From positions 179 to 64,178 of the forward strand of contig CBDVDV010000002.1 in the NCBI GenBank assembly GCA_965372835.1: DNA of 64,000 nt. Direction: 5' to 3'. Origin of the DNA: an uncultured bacterium (lineage in GTDB: Bacteria > Planctomycetota > DG-23 > CBDVDV01). Each line of letters opens with the position of its first letter. The stretch's first letter is position 1. The position numbers and the translations under genes are program-made. The notes under the pieces are model-generated. The model saw only the letters and a program-made list of their open reading frames with translations. It was not told the DNA's origin and did no database searches. This document shows positions 4,902 through 26,916 of this stretch, piece after piece.

Positions 4902-6101
4902 ATGGCCAAACAGAAGTTTGAGCGGACCAAGCCGCACATGAACATCGGCACCATTGGTCACGTGGACCACGGCAAGACGACGCTGACCAGCGCCATCACC
5001 TTGAACTTGGCCACCCGTGGGTTGGCTAAGGAGCGGTCCTTCGACTCCATTGACAACGCCCCGGAGGAACGGGAGCGCGGGCTGACCATTCAGGTGGCCC
5101 ACGTGGAGTACGAGACCGAGAAGCGCCACTACGCCCACATCGACTGTCCGGGCCACGCTGACTACATCAAGAACATGATTACCGGAGCGGCGCAGATGGA
5201 CGGAGCCGTTCTGGTGGTGGCCGCGGACGATGGTCCCATGCCCCAGACCCGAGAGCACATCCTCCTGGCCCGTCAGGTGGGCTTGCCCGCCTTGGTGGTG
5301 TTCCTCAACAAGGTGGACCTGGTGGACGACGAGGAGCTTCTGGAGTTGGTGGAGATGGAAGTGCGGGAACTGCTGAGCCGCTACGAGTTCCCCGGAGACG
5401 ACGTGCCCATCATCCGCGGCAGTGCCCTCAAGGCGATGCAGGACCCTTCCGGGGAGCCTGAGGACCCCAACGTGAAGTGCATCTTTGAGTTGATGCAGGC
5501 GGTGGACGATTACTTTCCGGAGCCGGTGCGCGACGTGGACCGGCCATTCCTGATGCCGGTGGAGGACGTGTTCTCCATCAAGGGTCGAGGGACGGTGGGC
5601 ACGGGCCGGGTCGAGCGCGGTCAGCTCCGGGTTGGCGACGAGGTGGACATTGTGGGTCTGGCTGAGACCAGGACCACGGTGGCCACGGGCGTCGAGATGT
5701 TCAACAAGACCCTGGAAGACGGCATGGCGGGTGACAACATCGGTGTGCTGTTGCGGGGGGTGGAGAAGGAGGAGTTGGAGCGGGGCATGGTGCTGGCCGC
5801 ACCGGGGTCGATCACACCCCACACCCGGTTCCGTGGACAGGTGTACGTGCTGAGCGCGGACGAGGGAGGTCGTCACACGCCCTTCTTCACCGGCTACCGG
5901 CCGCAGTTTTACTTCCGGACCACGGACGTGACCGGGTCGGTGACGCTGCCTGACGGTGTGGAGATGGTGATGCCGGGCGACAATGTGGAACTTGAGGTGC
6001 AGTTGATCAAGCCCATCGCCCTGGAAGAGGCGGTGCGGTTTGCCATCCGCGAGGGCGGCCACACGGTGGGAGCGGGCCTGGTCACCAAGGTGCTGGAATA
6101 G
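4902..6101 (+). CDS. tuf: elongation factor Tu
   Basis: 399 aa. [10 protein letters not shown]-loop, [12 protein letters not shown] motifs. GGAGGAGG RBS. Confidence 0.97.
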
Positions 6102-18728: not shown

Positions 18729-20804
18729 ATGAACGACAGCAACAACAACCAGGCACGGGGCGAGCGGCTGCGGAACATCGGTTTCGCCGCGCACATCGAC
18801 GCCGGCAAGACCACGGTCACCGAGCGCATCCTCTTCTACACCGGCTGCTCCCACCGCATGGGCGAGGTGCACGACGGTACCGCCACCATGGACTGGATGC
18901 CCGAGGAGCAGGAGCGGGGCATCACCATCACCTCCGCGGCCACCACCTGCCCCTGGCGCGACCAGCAGATCAACATCATCGACACCCCCGGCCACGTCGA
19001 CTTCACGGCCGAGGTGGAGCGGACCCTGCGGGTGCTGGACGGGGTCATCATCGTCTTCTGTGGGGTGGGTGGTGTGGAGGCCCAGTCGGAGACGGTCTGG
19101 CGACAGGCCGACCGCTACCGGGTTCCCCGACTGGCCTTCGTCAATAAGTTGGACCGGCCTGGGGCCGATTTCGATGCCGTGGTCGAGGAGATCCGCGGGC
19201 GGCTGGGCGCCCGTCCGGTCGCCGTCCACATGCCTTACTATGTGGGTGAGGAGTTCCGGGGGCTGGTGGACCTGGTGGAGATGAGGCTCGTCCTCTGGGC
19301 GGACGACACCCCGGACGCGGAGTTCAGCCGCCAGCCCATCCCCGAAGATCTCCTCGCTGAGGCCCGCCACCGCCACGAGGCGCTCCTGGAGCGGCTGGCC
19401 GAGACCTGCGACTGGGTCATGGAACGCTACGTCCACGACCACGAACTGGACCCCCAGAGCATTCGCCGGGCCCTCAGACAGGCCACCATCTCCCTCGACC
19501 TGGTGCCGGTGCTCTGTGGGGCGGCCCTGCGCAACAAGGGAATTCAGCCGTTGCTCGACGCCGTCTGCGACTACCTGCCCAGCCCCCTGGACCTGCCACC
19601 CGTCCAGGGCGTCCACCCCAAGACCGGAAAACCGACCGAGAGGCGGGCCAGCCCCGATGAGGCCCTGGCGGCGTTGGCCTTCAAGGTGGTGGCCGACGCC
19701 CACGGTGACCTGGTGTTCCTGCGCCTGTACTCGGGCCGACTGCGCCCCGGCGTCCGGGTCTACAACCCGGTCAAGCGCGCCTCCGAGCTGGTCACCCGCA
19801 TCTGGCGCATGCACGCCAATCAGCGCACCGCGCTGGAGGAGGCCGTTGCCGGCGACATCGTGGCCGTGGTCGGCCTCAAGCAGACCACCACCGGCGACAC
19901 CCTGTGCGACCGCAGTCACCACATCGTCCTGGAGCGTCCCGCCTTCCCCCAGACGGTCATCTCCATGGCCATCGAGCCCAGAAGTTCCGCCGACCGGAAC
20001 CGCCTGGTTGAGACCCTCAACAAACTCGCCCGCGAGGACCCCACCTTCAACTGGCGCTACAATGAGGAGACCGGGCAAGTGCTCATCTCGGGCATGGGCG
20101 AACTCCACCTGGAGGTCCTCGGCCACCGGATGCTCCAGGAGTTCAGATTGGACGCCAAGGTGGGTCGGCCCAGGGTGGCCTTCAAGGAGACGGTCAAGGC
20201 GGAGGCCACCGCCGAGGGTCGCCTTATCAAGCAGACCGGCGGCCGGGGGCAGTACGCACGAGTGACCCTCCGGGTGGCTCCAGACCCCGGCACCCTGGAC
20301 GTGCAGTTTCAGGACAAGACCCGCGGCGGCGTTATCCCCAGGCAGTTCATGCGGGCCGTTGAGCAAGGTGTCCGCGAGGCCGCGGCCTCGGGGCCCGTAT
20401 GGGGCTACCCCCTCATCGACGTGGCCGTGGTCGTGCTGGACGGAGCCTTCCACGAGGTCGATTCTTCTGACGTGGCCTTCCACGCCGCCGCCAGCCAGGC
20501 CCTGAACCAGGCCGCCGAGCAGGCCGGCGTGGTGCTGCTGGAGCCCATTATGCGCCTGGAGGTGGCGGTCCCGGAGGAGTACATGGGCGACGTTCTGGCC
20601 GACCTCAACAATCGACGGACCGAGATTACCGAGGTCAAGAGGCGAGCGAAGATGTGTTTCATCGAAGGACGGGTTCCGCTGGCCACCATGTTCGGCTACG
20701 CCACCGCCGTGCGCTCGCTGAGCCAGGGCCGAGCCACTTTCACCATGGAGCCTTGTGCCTACGCTCCCGTACCGCAGGAGATGTATGAGGAAATCCAGGT
20801 CTGA
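18729..20804 (+). CDS. fusA: elongation factor G
   Basis: [10 protein letters not shown]-loop and full five-domain EF-G. ATG 18729 chosen (the track ORF extension overlaps rpsG). Confidence 0.95.
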
Positions 20805-20841
20805 GGAGGCGTGTCGGGGGAGCGGTCAAGGAGACGAGCCG

Positions 20842-21000
20842 ATGGCCCGGGAGAACCTGGGGCGGACGAAGCCCCGCATGAACATGGGCGCTATTGGTCA
20901 CGTGGAGGACGGGCGCGGCGGGGAGCGTGAGCCTGCCTGTTGTGCCCTCCGCGAGGGCGGCCACACGGGCGGAGCCGGCCCGGGCACCGAGGTGCTGGAG
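20842..21000 (+). pseudogene. relic of a second tuf copy (str-operon tufA type) with large internal deletion
   Basis: MARENLGRTKPRMNMGAIGHVEDG matches the EF-Tu N-terminus. ALREGGHTGGAGPGTEVLE matches the EF-Tu C-terminus. ~340 codons are missing between them. RBS retained. The reading frame runs on into the S10 promoter. Confidence 0.8.
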
Positions 21001-21063
21001 CGAGGTGCGGGAATGAAAGGCCGAGAAAAGTGCGGAGAATCGGGGAAAATCCCCGGAAAAGAG

Positions 21064-21092
21064 TTGACCGAGCAGGCTCGAGGGACTATAGT
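21064..21092 (+). promoter_or_regulatory. sigma70-like S10-operon promoter (TTGACC-17-TATAGT)
   Basis: Near-consensus hexamers ~80 nt upstream of rpsJ. Preceded by the hairpin CGGGGA-AAA-TCCCCG (21041-21056). Confidence 0.5.
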
Positions 21093-21170
21093 ACAGGTTT
21101 GTGTATTTCTCGCGGCCATTGACCCTGAAGGCGCTTCTGCAGGCTGGCTGCGTCCCGGTAGAGGGTAACG

Positions 21171-21479
21171 ATGAGCGACCAAAAGATACGCATCCGCATG
21201 GAAGCCTACGACCACCGGGTGCTGGACCGCTGCGCCCGGCAGATCGTGGATACGGCTCTGCGCACGGGGGCGGTGGTCAAGGGGCCCATCCCACTGCCGA
21301 CCCGCATCGAGCGTTTCACGGTGCTCCGCGGTCCGAACATCGACAAGGAATCGCGCGAGCAGTTCGAAATCCGCACCCACAAGCGGCTTATTGACATCGC
21401 CGAGCCGACGGCCAAGACCATGGACGCCCTGGGTCGGCTGGCCCTGCCGGCCGGGGTCTTCATCAAGATCAAGGCTTGA
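21171..21479 (+). CDS. rpsJ: 30S ribosomal protein S10
   Basis: 102 aa S10. Confidence 0.97.
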
Positions 21480-21498
21480 ACTGGGGGTGGAGAGCACC

Positions 21499-22164
21499 AT
21501 GGTCAAGGCACTGTTAGGGCGAAAACTGGGCATGACTCAGGTCTATACCGAGGCTGGGGAACTGGTGCCCGTCACGGTTATAGAGGTCGGGCCCTGTCAG
21601 ATTATGCAGGTGAAGTCGACCGAGGGCAAGGATGGTTACAACGCTGTGGTCCTGGGCTTCGGGGACAAGAAGCGTCGGCGGGCCCGCCAGCCGGAACTGG
21701 GCCTGGCTCGCAAGGTGGGCACCGAGCCCAAACAGGTGCTGCGGGAGGTCCCCTGTGAGGACCCCTCAGCCTACGAGCCCGGTCAGGAACTCACCGTGGA
21801 CGTCTTTCGCGAGGTACCGGTGGTGGACGTGATCGGGGTCAGCAAGGGCCGGGGCTTCCAGGGGGTGGTCAAGCGCTGGGGAGCCCACGGGGGCCCGGCG
21901 AGTCACGGCTCCATGAGTCACCGGCGCATCGGCAGTATCGGGGCGTCCAGCGACCCGTCGCGGGTGATGAAGGGGCGCCACATGCCTGGGCGGATGGGCT
22001 CTCAGCGGGTAACCGCTCGGCACCTGCGCCTGGTGCGCGTGGATACGCGCCGGGGGCTGCTGCTGGTGGGGGGCAGTGTGCCCGGACCCGCCCGTGGGCT
22101 GGTTCTGGTGCAGGAAAGCAAGAAGACCACACGCTCCCGACACCATCATCCACATGTGGTGTAA
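21499..22164 (+). CDS. rplC: 50S ribosomal protein L3
   Basis: [16 protein letters not shown] start. The track ORF extension is upstream read-through. Confidence 0.95.
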
Positions 22165-22167
22165 GTG

Positions 22168-22794
22168 ATGAAGATTCCAGTGTACAACCAGGCCGGCGAG
22201 CAAGTCCAGGAGGAGGAACTGGACCTCGAGCGGCTGGGGCCGGTCAGGATGAAACTGTTGAAGCAGGTGGTTTTGGCCTACGAGGCCAACCGCCGGGTGG
22301 GCACCGCCTCCACCAAGCGCCGCGGCGAGATCGCCGGTTCCGGTCGCAAAATGTACCGCCAGAAGGGCACGGGCTTCGCCCGCATGGGCGGCCGCCGAAG
22401 CCCCATCCGCGTGGGTGGGAGCGTGGCCCACGGCCCCAGACCCCGCGACTATCGCCAGGCCATTCCCAAGCGGATGCGCCGAGGGGCGCTGGCCAGCGCC
22501 CTGGCCGGGAAGTTGGGTGATGGTGAAGTGGTCCTGCTCCAGGAGTTGTCACTGACCGAGCCCAAGACCAAAGCGGTGGCCGAACTGCTGGATCGGCTGG
22601 GCTGCCTGGACGGGTGTCTGCTGGTGGTGCCCGAGTACGACACCGTGGTGCTCAAGAGCACCCGTAACCTGCCCCGGGTGGCGGTAAGACAGGCCCGCAA
22701 CGTCAGTGCTTACGACCTGCTCCGCTACCAGCGGGTCGTCTTCGTGGGTGAGGCCCTGGACCGGGTGATGGAGCGGAGCCATGGCCAGAAGTAG
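22168..22794 (+). CDS. rplD: 50S ribosomal protein L4
   Basis: L4 family; ATG after GTG 22165. Confidence 0.93.
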
Positions 22795-23065
22795 GTACCA
22801 GATCGTCCTGGAACCGGTGGTCACTGAAAAGAGCGTGGCCGCCTCCGAGCGACAGAACATTTACACCTTCCGGGTGGACCCAAAGGCGACCAAGGGGCAG
22901 ATCAAGCAGGCGGTCGAGGAGATCTTCGGGGTGCAGGTGACCGCGGTGCGTACCATGACCACCCACTCCAAGCGTCGACGGGTGCGGGGACGGATGACCC
23001 GCAGCCACCTGGGCAAGAAGGCGGTGGTCAAGGTGGCCGCCGAGGACCGTATCGATATCTTCTGA
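22781..23065 (+). CDS. rplW: 50S ribosomal protein L23
   Basis: 94 aa L23. Confidence 0.95.
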   Translation: MARSRYQIVLEPVVTEKSVAASERQNIYTFRVDPKATKGQIKQAVEEIFGVQVTAVRTMTTHSKRRRVRGRMTRSHLGKKAVVKVAAEDRIDIF

Positions 23066-23122
23066 TTCGAAGCCGGGCCGGTTCCCTTTTGGAGCCTGCT
23101 CCGGGGGTAAGGAGTCAGGACG

Positions 23123-23689
23123 ATGACCGTCTCGAAGATGGCTGCACTGGGCGCGTTGATGCTGGCGTGCATCCTGCTGGTCTGGATGGTGGTGGGCTCC
23201 CGCGAGCCGGCGACCGAGACCCAGGGCGTGGCCGGCGCGGTCAAAGGCGAGACCTACGAGGACGCCGGCCTGGGCTTTGCGTTTGAGTTCCCGGCCGATT
23301 GGGTGAAGACCGATACCCCTCAGTTGGGGGCTGACGCCACCTTTTTGGGCCCCCGACGCAGCGACTTGACCATGAGCCTGGACATCCGCAGCGACGACAC
23401 CCCTACCGCGCTGGGCGTGTATGTGGATCGCTCCATCAAGAAGGTGCTGCCGGAGTACCGAACCGACTTCAGGCTGTTGGAAGAGCCGACCATGATGGAG
23501 GGCACCGTCAGTGCTATGAAGATGGCCTACAGTTATCGCGAGGGAGCGTTCGAGCTGACCAACGTCCAGGCGGTTTACGCGCTGCCGAACCGCAAGATCA
23601 TCCTGAGCTTTTGCCTGCTGAGTGAGCACTACGAAAAACTGAAGCCGGTGGTCGAGAACACCTTTAAGTCCTTCCGGCAGTTGAGGTGA
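23123..23689 (+). CDS. hypothetical secreted/membrane-anchored protein inserted in the S10 operon (possible DcrB/PsbP-like fold)
   Basis: 188 aa. N-terminal TM/signal ([19 protein letters not shown]). AAGGAG RBS. Weak resemblance to DUF1795/DcrB ([10 protein letters not shown]). Confidence 0.55.
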
Positions 23690-23705
23690 CGTAGGACGAG
23701 AGCCC

Positions 23706-24545
23706 ATGGCGCTGAAACAGTATAAACCGACCTCAGCCGGTCGCCGGTTCCTGGTCAACGTCGATTCTTCCGACATCACCAGGAAGCGACCGGAGAAGTC
23801 GCTGCTCCGCCCGTTGAAAAAGACGGGCGGCCGGAACTTCCAGGGGATCATCACCCATCACAATCGGGGCGGCGGCCACAAGCGCCGCTACCGGGTGATC
23901 GACTGGCGGCGCGACAAGGACGGTGTGCCGGGACGGGTGGCTTCCATTGAATACGATCCCAACCGGTCGGCCCGTATCGCCCTGCTCCACTACGCTGACG
24001 GCGAGAAACGCTACATCCTGGCGCCCGCGGGGCTGGCTGTGGGTGACACGGTGACCAGCGGCGAGCGGGTGGAGCCCCGTGTGGGTAACGCCATGGAACT
24101 TCGCTACATTCCCCTGGGTATGCCCGTCCACAATGTCGAACTGCAGCCTGGTCGCGGTGGACAGATGGCGCGGGGGGCGGGCACCTCGGCCACGGTCACC
24201 GCCCGGGAGCAGCGCTACGTGCAGGTAACCTTGCCCTCGGGGGAGGTCCGCCGAATCCTCGGTCGCTGCCGGGCCACCATCGGGGAACTCAGCAACCCCG
24301 ACCACAAGAACATCTCCCTGGGCAAGGCCGGCCGCAGCCGCTGGCTGGGCCGACGACCTCATGTCCGGGGAACTGCGAAGAACCCGGTCGACCACCCGAT
24401 GGGTGGTGGCGAGGGCCGGACCAAGGGCGGCCGCCACCCGGTCTCGGCCACGGGCAAGTTGGCCAAGGGAGGCAAAACCCGACCCCGGAACAAGCCTTCC
24501 AACGCCTTTATCGTGAGACGTCGTCGCCGACGACGTCGGCGGTGA
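23706..24545 (+). CDS. rplB: 50S ribosomal protein L2
   Basis: 279 aa L2 with basic C-terminal tail. Confidence 0.97.
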
Positions 24546-24573
24546 GTTCGCAGAGCCAGAGAAGGAGTCGCTG

Positions 24574-24846
24574 ATGGGGCGCTCGGTCAAGAAGGGTCCC
24601 TACGTGGACGCCAAGTTGCTCAAGAAAGTGGAGCGACAGCGGACCTCGGGCGATCGGGAGCCCATCCGCACCTGGAGTCGGGCTTCCACGGTGACCCCGG
24701 ACTTTGTCAACATGACCTTTTTGGTCCACGACGGGCGCAACTTCCGCCGGGTGTTCATCACCGAGGACATGGTGGGCCATCGGCTGGGGGAGTTCGCCCC
24801 CACGCGCACCTTCCGCGGTCACGCTCGTCAGCGCCGCCGTCCGTGA
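24574..24846 (+). CDS. rpsS: 30S ribosomal protein S19
   Basis: 90 aa S19. Confidence 0.95.
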
Positions 24847-24901
24847 GGTCGAGCGAGAGCCACAGGAGTACGAGCCGACAGTGGCGATAGTGGAGACATC
24901 G

Positions 24902-25246
24902 ATGCGGTTTCGGGCCGTTCACAGGTTTGCGCGGATTTCGCCGACCAAGGTGAGACCGACCATCGACCTCATCCGGGGTAAGCCCGTGGAGGAGGCGCTG
25001 GAGGTCCTGCAGTTCACGCCCACGCGGGCGGCCGGCTTCATCCGCAAGGTGCTCCAGTCGGCCGTGGCCAATGCCGGGCTGGATGCCGACCCCGAAAACC
25101 TGTACGTGGCCGAGGCCCTGGTGGACGGTGGCCCGACGCGCCGGGGGTACCTTCCCCGGGCTCGGGGCCGGGTGGACCGCATCCGCCACCGTACCAGCCA
25201 CATTACCGTGGTGCTCTCGGATGAGCGCCCCACCGAGGAGCAGTAG
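24902..25246 (+). CDS. rplV: 50S ribosomal protein L22
   Basis: ATG 24902 with a GGAGA RBS; the track start GTG 24881 adds 7 non-conserved residues. Confidence 0.9.
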   Translation: MRFRAVHRFARISPTKVRPTIDLIRGKPVEEALEVLQFTPTRAAGFIRKVLQSAVANAGLDADPENLYVAEALVDGGPTRRGYLPRARGRVDRIRHRTSHITVVLSDERPTEEQ

Positions 25247-25256
25247 GGGAGAACCC

Positions 25257-25931
25257 ATGGGACAGAAAGTCAGACCGACCAGCTTCCGGGTCGGTATCAC
25301 CAAGGGATGGCCCTCGCGCTGGCACGCTGACAAGGAGCATTTTGCCGACTTCGTGGTGGGGGATGCGCGGATCCGTCGCTTCATCCAGAAGAACTATCGC
25401 TACGCCGCCATCAGCCAGGTGGAGATCGAGCGCACCAAGGACAGCGTGCACCTCATCCTGCACACGGCCCGCCCGGGCATCGTCATCGGCCGCCGGGGTG
25501 TTGAGGTGGATCGGCTGCGTGGTCGCCTGGAAGAGATCACCGGCGGCCCCATCAAGATCACCATCCAGGAGGTGAGCCGACCCGAACTCAGCGCCCCACT
25601 GCTGGCCCAGAACATCGCCGAGCAGTTGGAGAAGCGGGCGTCGTTCCGCCGAACCATGCGTCGAGCAGCCGAAATGGCCCGGCAGATGGGCGCCCTGGGG
25701 GTGAAGGTGCAGGTGGCCGGTCGGCTGTCGGGTTCGGAGATGGCTCGGCGGGAAACCGTCATCGAAGGCAGCATTCCACTGCACACCCTGGATGCGGACA
25801 TCGACTTCGGCTTCGTCGAGGCCAAGACCAACAACGGACACGTCGGCATCAAGGTGTGGGTGTACCGGGGCATGATAAAGAAGGAGGAGGCGGGCGATGC
25901 CTCTGATGCCCAAACGGGTAAAGTATCGTAA
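25257..25931 (+). CDS. rpsC: 30S ribosomal protein S3
   Basis: [18 protein letters not shown] start, KH domain. Confidence 0.95.
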
Positions 25932-26316: not shown

Positions 26317-26546
26317 AGGCGCACGAACTGAGAGAACTGAGCCGCGAGGAACTGGTGACCGAACTGGCCACCCAGCGGGAGGCCCTGTTCCACCTGCGGG
26401 TTCGCGGGGTGAGCGGGGAAGTTGCGGCCGCCAGCGAGTTTGGTCGCATTCGTCGGGATATCGCCCGCATCCTGACCGTGTTGCGCGAGCAGGAGGTGAG
26501 CCTCCCCGCCGAAGCCGCCGACCAAGGAGCCCAGGACAATGGCTGA
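26313..26546 (+). CDS. rpmC: 50S ribosomal protein L29
   Basis: GTG start, 77 aa L29. Confidence 0.9.
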
Positions 26547-26916
26547 GCAACCCCGACGGATCACCGAGGTGGGGGTGGTGACCTCCACCAAGATGCAGAA
26601 GACCATCAAGGTGCGGGTCGGGCGGAGGCGGCTGCACCCACGCTACGGGAAGTACGTGCGCCGGCGAACCGTCTACCTGGCTCACGACGAGAGGGAAGTG
26701 GCCCGGGAGGGCGACCGGGTGGAGATCATCCAGAGCCGGCCACTGAGCAAGCACAAACGCTGGCGGCTCCTGAGGGTGCTGGGAGAGCCGGTCGGCGCCG
26801 GCCCCCTCAAGGCGGAGGCACCGGTGTTGGAGGCACCCACCGGCGAGGCGGAGCGCCCTTCGGCCGATGAGGCCGAGCCGAGTGGTGAGCGCCCGGGCGG
26901 TGCCGAGATTGAGTGA
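26539..26916 (+). CDS. rpsQ: 30S ribosomal protein S17 with Pro/Ala/Glu-rich C-terminal tail
   Basis: S17 core followed by a ~40-aa tail. Confidence 0.93.
   Translation: MAEQPRRITEVGVVTSTKMQKTIKVRVGRRRLHPRYGKYVRRRTVYLAHDEREVAREGDRVEIIQSRPLSKHKRWRLLRVLGEPVGAGPLKAEAPVLEAPTGEAERPSADEAEPSGERPGGAEIE

What the first reader, a model, noticed from the sequence alone, without database searches (positions are those of the whole stretch)
23123..23689. Non-ribosomal secreted/membrane protein gene inserted between rplW and rplB in the S10 operon
The L23-L2 junction is normally uninterrupted. Here a 188-aa ORF sits between them with its own AAGGAG RBS. It has an N-terminal TM/signal segment and weak DcrB/PsbP-like features ([10 protein letters not shown]). 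It would be co-transcribed and stoichiometrically co-expressed with ribosomal proteins. It could be a lineage-specific envelope factor coupled to ribosome synthesis, or a recent insertion.
Basis: seen in the sequence. Interest (0 to 1): 0.65.

Follow-up and report, generated by a model that had tools for sequence, protein, structure and literature searches.

The report
Membrane PsbP/DcrB-like gene inside S10 operon
A real, conserved gene for a small membrane-anchored protein with a PsbP/DcrB-type domain was inserted once, long ago, between the ribosomal protein genes L23 and L2 in one group of Planctomycetota and has stayed there; its function is unknown.

Summary
Window 23123-23689 (+) is a 188-aa gene between rplW (22781-23065) and rplB (23706-24545), with an AAGGAG site 8 nt upstream.

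- **It is a real gene.** Orthologs range from 40 to 98% identity, ω is 0.29-0.50, and GC3 and codon adaptation match the ribosomal neighbours.
- **The position is conserved.** All 16 ortholog loci with both flanks visible show L23-ORF-L2.
- **The insertion marks one clade.** It is present in every examined locus of the clade whose L2 is ≥80% identical to the window's. It is absent, with 16-26 nt gaps, from the nearest outgroups (L2 71-72%), and no relative of it was found in any of the 80 GTDB loci.
- **The insertion is old and vertical.** ORF and L2 distances co-vary (Mantel r=0.63, p=0.0005), and no repeat scars flank it.
- **The protein.** It has a TM helix (residues 6-24), a disordered linker and an α/β domain of the Mog1p/PsbP fold. 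Foldseek matches CyanoP at 2.6e-8. hhalign gives 99.9% probability against bacterial PsbP_2/PsbP/DcrB lipoproteins. The window protein scores below the Pfam cut-off (PsbP 16.2 bits).
- **Not a lipoprotein or cleaved secreted protein.** The cysteine is not conserved, and Pro follows the hydrophobic segment in four of twelve orthologs.

Most likely it is an N-in/C-out anchored periplasmic binding module expressed from the S10 transcript. Co-transcription, stoichiometry and function are inferred, not shown. It is a new, divergent member of a known superfamily in an unusual but not unprecedented place.

The parts
21064..21092 (+). Promoter-like site (TTGACC-17-TATAGT) upstream of rpsJ; candidate S10-operon promoter
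   Evidence: Consensus scan, 10 of 12 matches. It is the only + strand promoter-like site in 20500-25500. Consensus match only, not evidence of function.
22781..23065 (+). rplW (ribosomal protein L23), upstream neighbour
   Evidence: Pfam Ribosomal_L23, 3.6e-27; ORF.
23073..23104 (+). GC-rich stem-loop in the 57-nt L23-ORF spacer (possible, unproven)
   Evidence: The MFE hairpin is part of a -25.4 kcal/mol fold. Comparable hairpins can be drawn in the other orthologs, but z-scores against shuffles are -2.0 to +0.5. The RNAalifold covariation term is unfavourable, with 3 of 12 pairs showing compensatory change. There is no U-tract and no Rfam match.
23109..23114 (+). Shine-Dalgarno AAGGAG of the inserted gene, 8 nt before the ATG
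   Evidence: Sequence. AAGGAG is conserved in 9 of 10 ortholog spacers; L097 has GGGAG.
23123..23689 (+). Inserted gene: 188-aa membrane-anchored PsbP/DcrB-like protein (CDS including stop)
   Evidence: ORF; homologs; dN/dS 0.29-0.50; synteny.
23138..23194 (+). Transmembrane signal-anchor segment (residues 6-24), preceded by the conserved MTxSK
   Evidence: Kyte-Doolittle mean 2.6-3.6 over 19 residues in all 12 orthologs. AF2 helix 3-24. Cys16 is not conserved, and VVG-P occurs in four of the twelve orthologs.
23195..23242 (+). Variable, low-complexity linker (residues 25-40)
   Evidence: pLDDT below 50 over residues 25-40. These columns are poorly conserved and contain indels.
23243..23686 (+). 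Mog1p/PsbP-fold α/β domain (residues 41-188)
   Evidence: pLDDT is mostly 82-93 over this domain. Foldseek PDB: CyanoP 2xb3 2.6e-8 with target-normalised TM 0.73, PNSL in 9grx 1.2e-8, DcrB 6e8a 2.6e-5, EagT6/SciW, LpqN. hhalign to PsbP_2/PsbP/DcrB relatives: 99.9% probability, E 1e-32.
23706..24545 (+). rplB (ribosomal protein L2), downstream neighbour, 16 nt after the insert's stop
   Evidence: Pfam Ribosomal_L2_N and Ribosomal_L2_C; spacer sequences.

Best explanation
The ORF is a genuine gene that entered the L23-L2 junction once, in the ancestor of a Planctomycetota clade. That clade is roughly family- to order-level in depth: EF-G is 76-82% and L2 at least 80% identical. The gene has been inherited vertically since.

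It encodes a single-pass inner-membrane protein. A short cytoplasmic N-terminus (MTxSK) is followed by an uncleaved signal-anchor helix (residues 6-24), a flexible linker of about 16 residues, and a periplasm-facing Mog1p/PsbP-fold domain. That domain is homologous to the bacterial PsbP_2/PsbP/DcrB lipoprotein group.

It is transcribed as part of the S10 operon mRNA and translated from its own AAGGAG site, so its supply follows ribosome synthesis and therefore growth rate. The domain has no catalytic signature. By analogy with characterised relatives it most likely acts as a non-enzymatic binding or scaffold module at the outer face of the cytoplasmic membrane, in envelope or membrane-protein/lipoprotein biogenesis.

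Shown: the gene is real, its fold and homology, its conserved position, its age, and the absence of a lipobox.
Inferred: topology, co-transcription, growth-coupled expression, and above all the biochemical role.
For: **Gene reality and selection.** Homologs of 40-98% identity. ω is 0.29-0.50, against 0.05-0.25 for L2. GC3 is 0.852, as in the neighbours. CAI is 0.664, within the r-protein range of 0.63-0.72 and above unrelated window genes at 0.46-0.62.

**Position.** L23-ORF-L2 holds in all 16 loci with both flanks. L098 has the ORF's C-terminus ending 3 nt before L2.

**Clade limits.** Eleven L2 clusters are at 80% identity or more, then identity drops to 72% or less. Outgroups L099 and L100 have 16- and 26-nt gaps. 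No relative of the ORF was found in any of the 80 GTDB loci, about 10 of them Planctomycetota.

**Vertical descent.** Mantel r=0.63, p=0.0005. No flanking repeats. No PHROG or PADLOC hit.

**Fold and homology.** AF2 mean pLDDT 80.5. Foldseek top hits are PsbP family, DcrB, LpqN and Eag chaperones. Pfam weak hits in 12, 11 and 8 of 13 orthologs. hhalign 99.9% to relatives that Pfam recognises.

**Outside-facing domain.** 123 of 148 top superfamily hits have an N-terminal hydrophobic or lipobox signal. hhalign aligns the ORF's TM segment with the relatives' signal peptides. An invariant K/R precedes the helix. DcrB is described as a membrane-anchored periplasmic protein of the Mog1p/PsbP family (PMC7716261) and is linked to Lgt and membrane fluidity (PMC9487459).

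**Operon membership.** Same strand, gaps of 57 and 16 nt, and no + strand promoter- or terminator-like site near the insert.
Against: - No transcript, protein or topology data exist.
- The positive-inside rule is ambiguous. The net charge of the 15 residues after the helix runs from -2 to +3 among orthologs, and is +3 in L001.
- The window protein is below the PsbP cut-off (16.2 vs 23.5 bits) and has no DcrB or PsbP_2 hit at E≤1. Functional transfer from DcrB, LpqN or CyanoP therefore rests on fold-level homology at 11-18% identity.
- The fold family is functionally heterogeneous. It includes cytoplasmic Eag chaperones and immunity proteins.
- A transporter-like gene occupies the same junction in an unrelated genome (L076). 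The position by itself therefore need not carry functional meaning.
- A possible hairpin upstream could uncouple expression from the ribosomal genes.
Confidence: 0.6

Rival explanations
1. Frozen accident. The gene has an envelope function unrelated to translation. It landed in the operon by chance and persists because clean excision from an essential operon is difficult. The location is not selected for growth-coupled expression.
For: No functional link between PsbP/DcrB-fold proteins and ribosomes is known (own knowledge). An unrelated 447-aa transporter-like gene sits at the same junction in L076, so this site can accept arbitrary cargo. Distant relatives sit in unrelated contexts. The ORF evolves 2.7 times faster than L2.
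Against: It is retained without exception in every clade locus examined, across synonymous divergence of about 1.1-1.5 for the ORF between the deepest pairs, with a conserved strong SD. Codon adaptation is at r-protein level. No second copy or ortholog was found outside this locus among 1.84 billion representatives; only 3 clusters reach E≤1e-30, and every one whose locus was examined is in this context.
Confidence: 0.3
2. Cleaved signal peptide. The protein is released as a soluble periplasmic or secreted PsbP-like protein rather than being membrane-anchored.
For: In the window protein, 'VVG|SRE' satisfies the -3/-1 rule for signal peptidase I (own reading). Many superfamily relatives have cleavable signal peptides.
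Against: The hydrophobic core is 19 residues, which is TM length. Four of the twelve orthologs compared have Pro at +1 (VVG-P), which blocks signal peptidase I (established knowledge). AF2 models one continuous helix over residues 3-24.
Confidence: 0.12
3. Inverted topology (N-out/C-in). The PsbP/DUF1795-like domain faces the cytoplasm at the membrane. There it acts with the ribosome exit site (L23) or on nascent transmembrane segments, like the Eag/SciW chaperones that hold TM helices, or it tethers ribosomes to membranes.
For: The gene lies directly after L23, the exit-tunnel docking protein (own knowledge). EagT6/SciW chaperones, which bind effector TM domains, are among the fold hits. Some orthologs have more positive charge after the helix than before it, for example L001 at +3 vs +1.
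Against: The closest sequence relatives are exported lipoproteins or signal-peptide proteins. Eag-type hits rank below PsbP and CyanoP. The charge bias is not consistent across orthologs. No T6SS or partner genes are nearby.
Confidence: 0.06
4. A recent horizontal insertion, a mobile-element remnant, or a spurious ORF in GC-rich DNA.
For: Long chance ORFs are frequent here (antisense 383-aa ORF). The window protein has no Pfam hit above threshold.
Against: Purifying selection; orthologs down to 40% identity in the same slot; distances congruent with L2; composition identical to neighbours; no flanking repeats; a confident fold.
Confidence: 0.02

Closest known systems
Bacterial PsbP-like single-domain lipoproteins or anchored proteins (Pfam PF18933 PsbP_2, overlapping PF01789 PsbP and PF08786 DcrB; Mog1p/PsbP fold)
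   Same: Homologous over the whole length: hhalign 99.9% probability, E 1e-32, 171 columns. They share the motifs Y-x-[DN]-x(2,3)-G-F-x-[FI]-x-[YF]-P-x-x-W and F-x-G-P...F-T-[MV]-x-[LI], are about 180-200 aa long, and have an N-terminal export or anchor segment.
   Different: The window protein scores below the PsbP cut-off and has no PsbP_2 or DcrB hit at E≤1. It has a TM anchor instead of a lipobox. It forms a tight orthologous clade of 3 clusters at E≤1e-30, separated from the rest, whose next best hit is at 1e-28. It is found only inside the S10 operon, whereas the one relative whose context could be read (P0028, L103) sits elsewhere; the P0031 contig was too short to tell. The family itself has no established function.
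DcrB (E. coli/Salmonella inner-membrane lipoprotein, DUF1795; PDB 6e8a)
   Same: Same fold (Foldseek E 2.6e-5). A small periplasmic domain tethered to the inner membrane (PMC7716261). No catalytic activity is known. It is linked to envelope homeostasis and Lgt-dependent lipoprotein maturation (PMC9487459, citing Mychack & Janakiraman 2021).
   Different: About 16% identity. DcrB is lipid-anchored through a lipobox Cys, whereas this protein is TM-anchored and its Cys is not conserved. DcrB is not encoded in a ribosomal operon (own knowledge).
CyanoP / PsbP / PNSL (thylakoid-lumen PsbP family; PDB 2xb3, 2lnj, 9grx)
   Same: These are the best structural matches: E 1e-8 to 3e-8, target-normalised TM 0.72-0.73. 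They give the only PDB sequence-profile hit (2lnj, E 0.54). They sit on the extracytoplasmic (lumenal) side and act as accessory or assembly subunits of membrane complexes.
   Different: 13-17% identity. There is no photosystem context; Planctomycetota are not phototrophs (own knowledge). The protein scores below the Pfam PsbP gathering cut-off.
LpqN (M. tuberculosis) and EagT6/SciW (T6SS effector chaperones)
   Same: Same fold. PDB titles describe LpqN as 'involved in cell envelope biogenesis' and SciW as bound to an effector transmembrane domain. This shows that the fold can bind hydrophobic or membrane partners.
   Different: LpqN is a lipoprotein. Eag and SciW are cytoplasmic, lack a TM segment and are encoded next to their effectors. 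None of these conditions applies here.
Non-ribosomal genes embedded in ribosomal-protein operons (secY, adk, map, infA in spc/alpha; inserted genes catalogued in PMC8046335; the transporter-like gene in L076)
   Same: A non-ribosomal, membrane-related gene co-oriented within the r-protein cluster. The window itself carries secY-, adk- and map-sized ORFs downstream in the usual order, assigned by position and size only. L076 shows an independent insertion at the very same L23-L2 junction.
   Different: secY, adk and map are near-universal and ancient. The four rearrangement events PMC8046335 analysed in detail insert genes at operon boundaries or, in one case, inside the rpoBC operon, none inside S10. 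This insertion is internal to the S10 operon and restricted to one clade.

Membership tests
Pfam PF01789 PsbP | Whole-protein score at or above the gathering cut-off (23.5 bits) | tested here: not met
   16.2 bits, E 0.011, only residues 43-88. 12 of 13 orthologs give weak hits, best E 9.4e-5.
Pfam PF01789 PsbP | Association with photosystem II or NDH in the thylakoid lumen | not testable with these tools
   No photosynthesis genes were seen in the window. The lineage is named Planctomycetes by its source. Absence of phototrophy in that phylum is own knowledge.
Pfam PF08786 DcrB (DUF1795) | Score at or above the gathering cut-off (27.2 bits) | tested here: not met
   No hit at E≤1 for the window protein. 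11 of 13 orthologs give weak hits, best 1.1e-5. P0012 carries a precomputed PF08786 hit.
Pfam PF08786 DcrB (DUF1795) | Lipobox with an invariant Cys, giving lipid anchoring | tested here: not met
   Cys16 is replaced by Ser in L001 and Gly in L008. The -1 residue is Val in L092, L006 and L093, and Ile in L094. The hydrophobic stretch continues 8 residues past the Cys.
Pfam PF18933 PsbP_2 (bacterial PsbP-like) | Score at or above the gathering cut-off (27 bits) | tested here: not met
   No hit for the window protein. 8 of 13 orthologs give weak hits, best 5.3e-5.
Pfam PF18933 PsbP_2 (bacterial PsbP-like) | Full-length profile homology to recognised members | tested here: met
   hhalign of A2 against A4 gives probability 99.9%, E 1e-32, 171 columns. 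In A4, 15 of 17 members hit PsbP_2, 15 PsbP and 13 DcrB at E≤1e-3.
Mog1p/PsbP-like fold superfamily | α/β sandwich: a central antiparallel sheet flanked by helices, superposable on solved members | tested here: met
   AF2 mean pLDDT 80.5, pTM 0.70. 49 PDB chains match at E≤1e-3, all from this fold group, with target-normalised TM up to 0.73.
Extracytoplasmic, membrane-tethered protein | N-terminal export or anchor signal with the domain outside the cytoplasm | tested here: inconclusive
   The TM segment is clear. Orientation is supported by homology, since 83% of relatives carry export signals, but the flanking-charge bias is ambiguous. No dedicated topology predictor was available.
S10 operon transcription unit | Same strand, short intergenic gaps, no internal terminator or promoter, conserved order | tested here: met
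   Gaps of 57 and 16 nt in the window, and 54-87 and 3-48 nt in orthologs. No + strand promoter- or terminator-like site was found between the rpsJ leader and 25500. The order holds in 16 of 16 loci (and others).
S10 operon transcription unit | One continuous transcript across 23065-23706 | not testable with these tools
   No RNA-seq or metatranscriptome mapping tool was available.
Eag/SciW DUF1795 T6SS chaperones | Cytoplasmic protein without a TM segment, encoded next to a TM-containing T6SS effector | tested here: not met
   This protein has a TM anchor, and its neighbours are only ribosomal genes.

The most novel reading that the evidence does not exclude
The protein is a clade-specific accessory of co-translational membrane-protein or lipoprotein biogenesis, and its dosage must track ribosome number.

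Two versions are possible. In one it is a periplasmic-side partner of Sec/YidC/Lgt, in the way DcrB relates to Lgt, encoded with the ribosome for the same reason as secY. In the other, bolder version the topology is inverted and it is a cytoplasm-facing, Eag-like holder of nascent TM helices, or a ribosome tether acting at the L23 exit site on the extensive planctomycete inner-membrane system.
Probability: 0.1. Interest if true: 0.75.

Novelty: new member of a known kind. Interest (0 to 1): 0.38.

Why it matters
The S10 operon is one of the most rigid gene arrays in prokaryotes. A non-ribosomal membrane protein held inside it in every clade locus examined is a clean natural case of a gene being recruited into ribosomal-protein co-expression.

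If the position is functional, it would point to an envelope or export factor whose amount must scale with translation capacity. It would also give a first functional handle on the large, uncharacterised bacterial PsbP_2/DcrB-like family, which gave 748 profile hits here.

If the position is a frozen accident, the value is more modest. The insertion is then a convenient synapomorphy and marker for an under-sampled Planctomycetota lineage, and a data point showing that the L23-L2 junction tolerates cargo. Either way, annotation pipelines currently leave the protein unnamed.

Tried and rejected
1. **GTDB scan with the ortholog alignment.** It found no relative. The lineage has no representative there; the best L2 identity is only 67%.
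3. **Spacer hairpin as a regulatory RNA.** Folds exist in each ortholog, but z-scores are ordinary for GC-rich sequence and covariation is not supportive. Rfam gave nothing. Left as inconclusive.
4. **Lipoprotein reading.** 'MLAC' in the window protein fits a loose lipobox, but it was rejected because the Cys and the -1 residue are not conserved.
5. **Read-through fusion of L23 with the ORF.** The two are in the same frame in the window. This was rejected because of an in-frame TAA in the spacer and spacer lengths of 54-87 nt that are not in register.
6. **Mobile-element, phage or defence origin.** No flanking repeats and no PHROG or PADLOC hit.
7. **Paralogs.** None in the window or the long loci.
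8. **Context of distant relatives.** P0031 and P0028 were uninformative.
9. **P0191.** This 335-aa L2 is an unrelated L2 with an internal duplication, not a fusion at this junction.
10. **Literature.** Two searches found no report of this insertion.
11. **PDB sequence-profile search.** It gave only CyanoP at E 0.54.

Full report
**1. The observation**

The window has a 188-aa ATG-initiated ORF at 23123..23689 on the + strand. Upstream is L23 (22781..23065, Pfam Ribosomal_L23, 3.6e-27). Downstream is L2 (23706..24545, Ribosomal_L2_N and _C). The surrounding genes run in the canonical order S10-L3-L4-L23-[ORF]-L2-S19-L22-S3-L16-L29-S17-L14.

An AAGGAG lies at 23109-23114, 8 nt before the ATG. 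The gap from L23 to the ORF is 57 nt and the gap from the ORF to L2 is 16 nt.

**2. It is a real gene**

Long chance ORFs are common in this GC-rich DNA; a 383-aa antisense ORF overlaps the region. ORF length therefore proves nothing, and the case rests on four other results.

- A search of 5.8 billion proteins returned 14 homologs at 55-98% identity. An exhaustive profile search of 1.84 billion representatives added a 40%-identical ortholog, P0015.
- Pairwise Nei-Gojobori ω is 0.29-0.50 for the ORF, 0.08-0.32 for L23 and 0.05-0.25 for L2, with dS up to about 1.5. The gene is under purifying selection but is freer than its neighbours.
- GC3 is 0.852, indistinguishable from S10, L4, L23 and S19.
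- Codon adaptation against the window's ribosomal genes is 0.664. That is inside their range of 0.63-0.72 and above unrelated genes in the window at 0.46-0.62.

**3. Position and phyletic pattern**

Every ortholog whose contig shows both flanks lies between L23 and L2. These are L001-L009, L090-L095 and L097, 16 loci besides the window. L096 and L098 are truncated but consistent.

Ranking relatives by L2 gives 11 clusters at 80% identity or more, followed by an abrupt fall to 72% or less. On the near side of that break (L2 81%) the ORF is present (L097). On the far side (71-72%) L23 abuts L2, with gaps of 16 and 26 nt (L099 and L100).

Both genes were located in 70 of the 80 GTDB loci retrieved with L2. 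In those the gap is mostly 8-110 nt. No relative of the ORF was found in any of the 80 loci, about ten of which are Planctomycetota.

Within the clade, EF-G is 76-82% and the r-proteins about 69-96% identical. This suggests roughly family- to order-level depth; that rank estimate is my inference. The only taxonomic label comes from the sources: 'Planctomycetes/Planctomycetota bacterium' for two partial orthologs. The nearest named L2 hits are Pirellulales or Planctomycetaceae. The lineage is absent from the GTDB representative set available here.

**4. Age and mode of the insertion**

- ORF and L2 pairwise distances are correlated (Mantel r=0.63, p=0.0005). The ORF evolves about 2.7 times faster.
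- No direct or inverted repeats bracket the gene.
- There is no PHROG or PADLOC match.
- No paralog exists in the window or the long loci.
- Only three 50%-identity clusters reach E≤1e-30 in the representative library. Every one whose locus was examined is in this context.

Together these indicate one ancestral insertion followed by vertical descent.

**5. The protein**

AlphaFold2 on the 14-sequence alignment gave mean pLDDT 80.5 and pTM 0.70. It models a helix over residues 3-24, a disordered stretch over residues 25-40, and a β/α domain to the C-terminus with pLDDT mostly 82-93.

Foldseek against the PDB gave 49 matches at E≤1e-3, all of the Mog1p/PsbP fold group:

| Match | PDB entry | E-value |
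|---|---|---|
| PsbP-like subunit of NDH-PSI | 9grx | 1.2e-8 |
| Cyanobacterial PsbP (target-normalised TM 0.73) | 2xb3 | 2.6e-8 |
| Jonesia protein | 3lyd | 7.8e-7 |
| SciW (first chain listed) | 6xrb | 3.2e-6 |
| EagT6 (first chain listed) | 6xrf | 6.3e-6 |
| DcrB | 6e8a | 2.6e-5 |
| LpqN | 6e5d | 3.2e-5 |
| Tsi3 (first chain listed) | 3wa5 | 1.5e-4 |

At the sequence level the window protein reaches only 16.2 bits on Pfam PsbP, against a cut-off of 23.5. However, 12, 11 and 8 of 13 orthologs give weak hits to PsbP, DcrB and PsbP_2 respectively.

The profile search found 748 relatives at E≤1e-3. The closest non-orthologs are recognised by Pfam as PsbP, PsbP_2 or DcrB. A profile-profile comparison with 17 of them gives 99.9% probability, E 1e-32, over 171 columns.

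The protein is therefore a divergent but genuine member of this superfamily. It fails the curated cut-offs of every individual Pfam family, so I do not file it as 'PsbP' or 'DcrB' proper.

**6. Anchor and topology**

All 12 orthologs compared have a conserved MTxSK, a 19-residue hydrophobic segment (Kyte-Doolittle mean 2.6-3.6) and then a variable Gly/Ala/Ser/Pro/Thr linker.

The window's 'MLAC' resembles a loose lipobox. However, the Cys is Ser in L001 and Gly in L008, the -1 residue is Val in three orthologs and Ile in a fourth, and the hydrophobic run continues past the Cys. The protein is not a lipoprotein.

In the window, 'VVG|S' could be a signal-peptidase I site. Four of the twelve orthologs have Pro at +1, which blocks cleavage (established knowledge), and the segment is TM length. 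An uncleaved signal anchor is the better reading.

Orientation is inferred. Of the 148 best superfamily hits, 123 carry N-terminal hydrophobic or lipobox signals. hhalign aligns the ORF's helix with those signals. Characterised bacterial members are extracytoplasmic (PMC7716261). All of this favours N-in/C-out. The flanking-charge balance is ambiguous, running from -2 to +3 after the helix against +1 before it, so I rate this step as probable, not shown.

**7. Expression**

The only + strand promoter-like site in 20500-25500 is upstream of S10 (21064-21092), and no + strand terminator-like site was found. Gaps are short and the order is fixed. Co-transcription is therefore the natural inference, but it was not tested.

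The L23-ORF spacer (54-87 nt in orthologs) can form a GC-rich hairpin in each ortholog. Stability is not better than shuffles (z from -2.0 to +0.5) and covariation is not supportive. I record it as a possible feature only. 'Stoichiometric' co-expression is an assumption, because the gene has its own SD and possibly this hairpin.

**8. Mechanism**

The best-supported reading is a membrane-tethered periplasmic binding or scaffold module, made from the S10 transcript so that its supply follows ribosome synthesis.

The functional analogy is to DcrB, an inner-membrane lipoprotein tied to Lgt-dependent lipoprotein maturation and membrane fluidity (PMC9487459). It also draws on LpqN, whose PDB title reads 'cell envelope biogenesis', and on CyanoP/PsbP, accessory or assembly factors of membrane complexes. 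This analogy rests on fold-level homology at 11-18% identity and is the weakest step.

The rivals are:

- a frozen accident with no link to translation, supported by the independent transporter-like insertion at the same junction in L076;
- a cleaved, soluble periplasmic form;
- an inverted, cytoplasm-facing Eag-like or ribosome-proximal role, which is the most novel reading and has low probability.

**9. Comparison with what is known, and novelty**

Non-ribosomal genes inside r-protein clusters are familiar. ORFs of secY, adk and map size sit downstream in this very window in the usual order, assigned by position and size only. The four rearrangement events analysed in detail in a systematic study of this operon cluster insert genes at operon boundaries or inside the rpoBC operon, not inside S10 (PMC8046335). 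Two literature searches found no description of a gene between rplW and rplB in Planctomycetota.

The protein is a new, divergent subfamily of a known superfamily. The context is unusual but not unique. I classify it as a new member of a known kind, with moderate interest (0.38): the finding is robust and clean, but nothing yet ties the position to a mechanism.

Noticed in passing
L076 1359-2702 (GTDB record CAVCRX010000060.1, titled 'Bacteroidaceae bacterium'): A 447-aa multi-pass membrane, transporter-like ORF sits between L23 (901-1188) and L2 (3001-3831). This is an independent insertion at the same junction in an unrelated genome.
   Followed up: partly
window 23073-23104, and the equivalent spacers of L001, L003, L008, L092 and L097: A GC-rich stem-loop can be drawn between the L23 stop and the insert's SD in every ortholog, although the sequences differ. 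Stability and covariation are not significant. It could be a processing or stability element, or just GC-rich spacer.
   Followed up: partly
window 24500-24545 (L2 C-terminus), and the same position in the clade loci: L2 ends in a run of 7-10 arginines (window: [10 protein letters not shown]). All clade members share this tail, some interrupted by G, K or H. The outgroups have shorter, mixed K/R tails.
   Followed up: partly
L099 and L100 compared with the window r-proteins: Between the clade and its nearest outgroups, L23 is the most diverged of the eight r-proteins compared: 36-37% identity, against 46-51% for L4, 51-58% for L22 and 71-72% for L2. This may simply reflect L23's usual variability. 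It was not tested for a link with the insertion next to it.
   Followed up: no
L026 2672-2985 (Candidatus Bruticola MAG); Collinsella loci L079, L081, L083-L085 and L087-L089: Unusually long ORF-less L23-L2 spacers: about 315-340 nt in L026 and about 194 nt in Collinsella, against the usual tens of nucleotides.
   Followed up: no
window 20805-21170: A 366-nt non-coding leader lies between fusA and rpsJ, with a promoter-like site at 21064-21092. No tuf copy lies between fusA and S10; a tuf-sized ORF lies at 4902-6101, after a tRNA cluster.
   Followed up: no
L101 1152-2159 (P0191, ENA ERZ27245805): A 335-aa L2 with an internal duplication of about 56 residues of the '[14 protein letters not shown]...' segment. 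It is probably an assembly chimera of two strains and is unrelated to the clade.
   Followed up: partly
P0016 (983 aa), P0017 (672 aa) and other hits: Many superfamily relatives are secreted proteins built from 2-6 tandem PsbP-like domains. This architecture was not explored further.
   Followed up: no
window 26539-26916 (S17): S17 is 125 aa with an acidic, Pro/Ala-rich C-terminal extension. Its length varies from 101 to 139 aa among clade loci.
   Followed up: no
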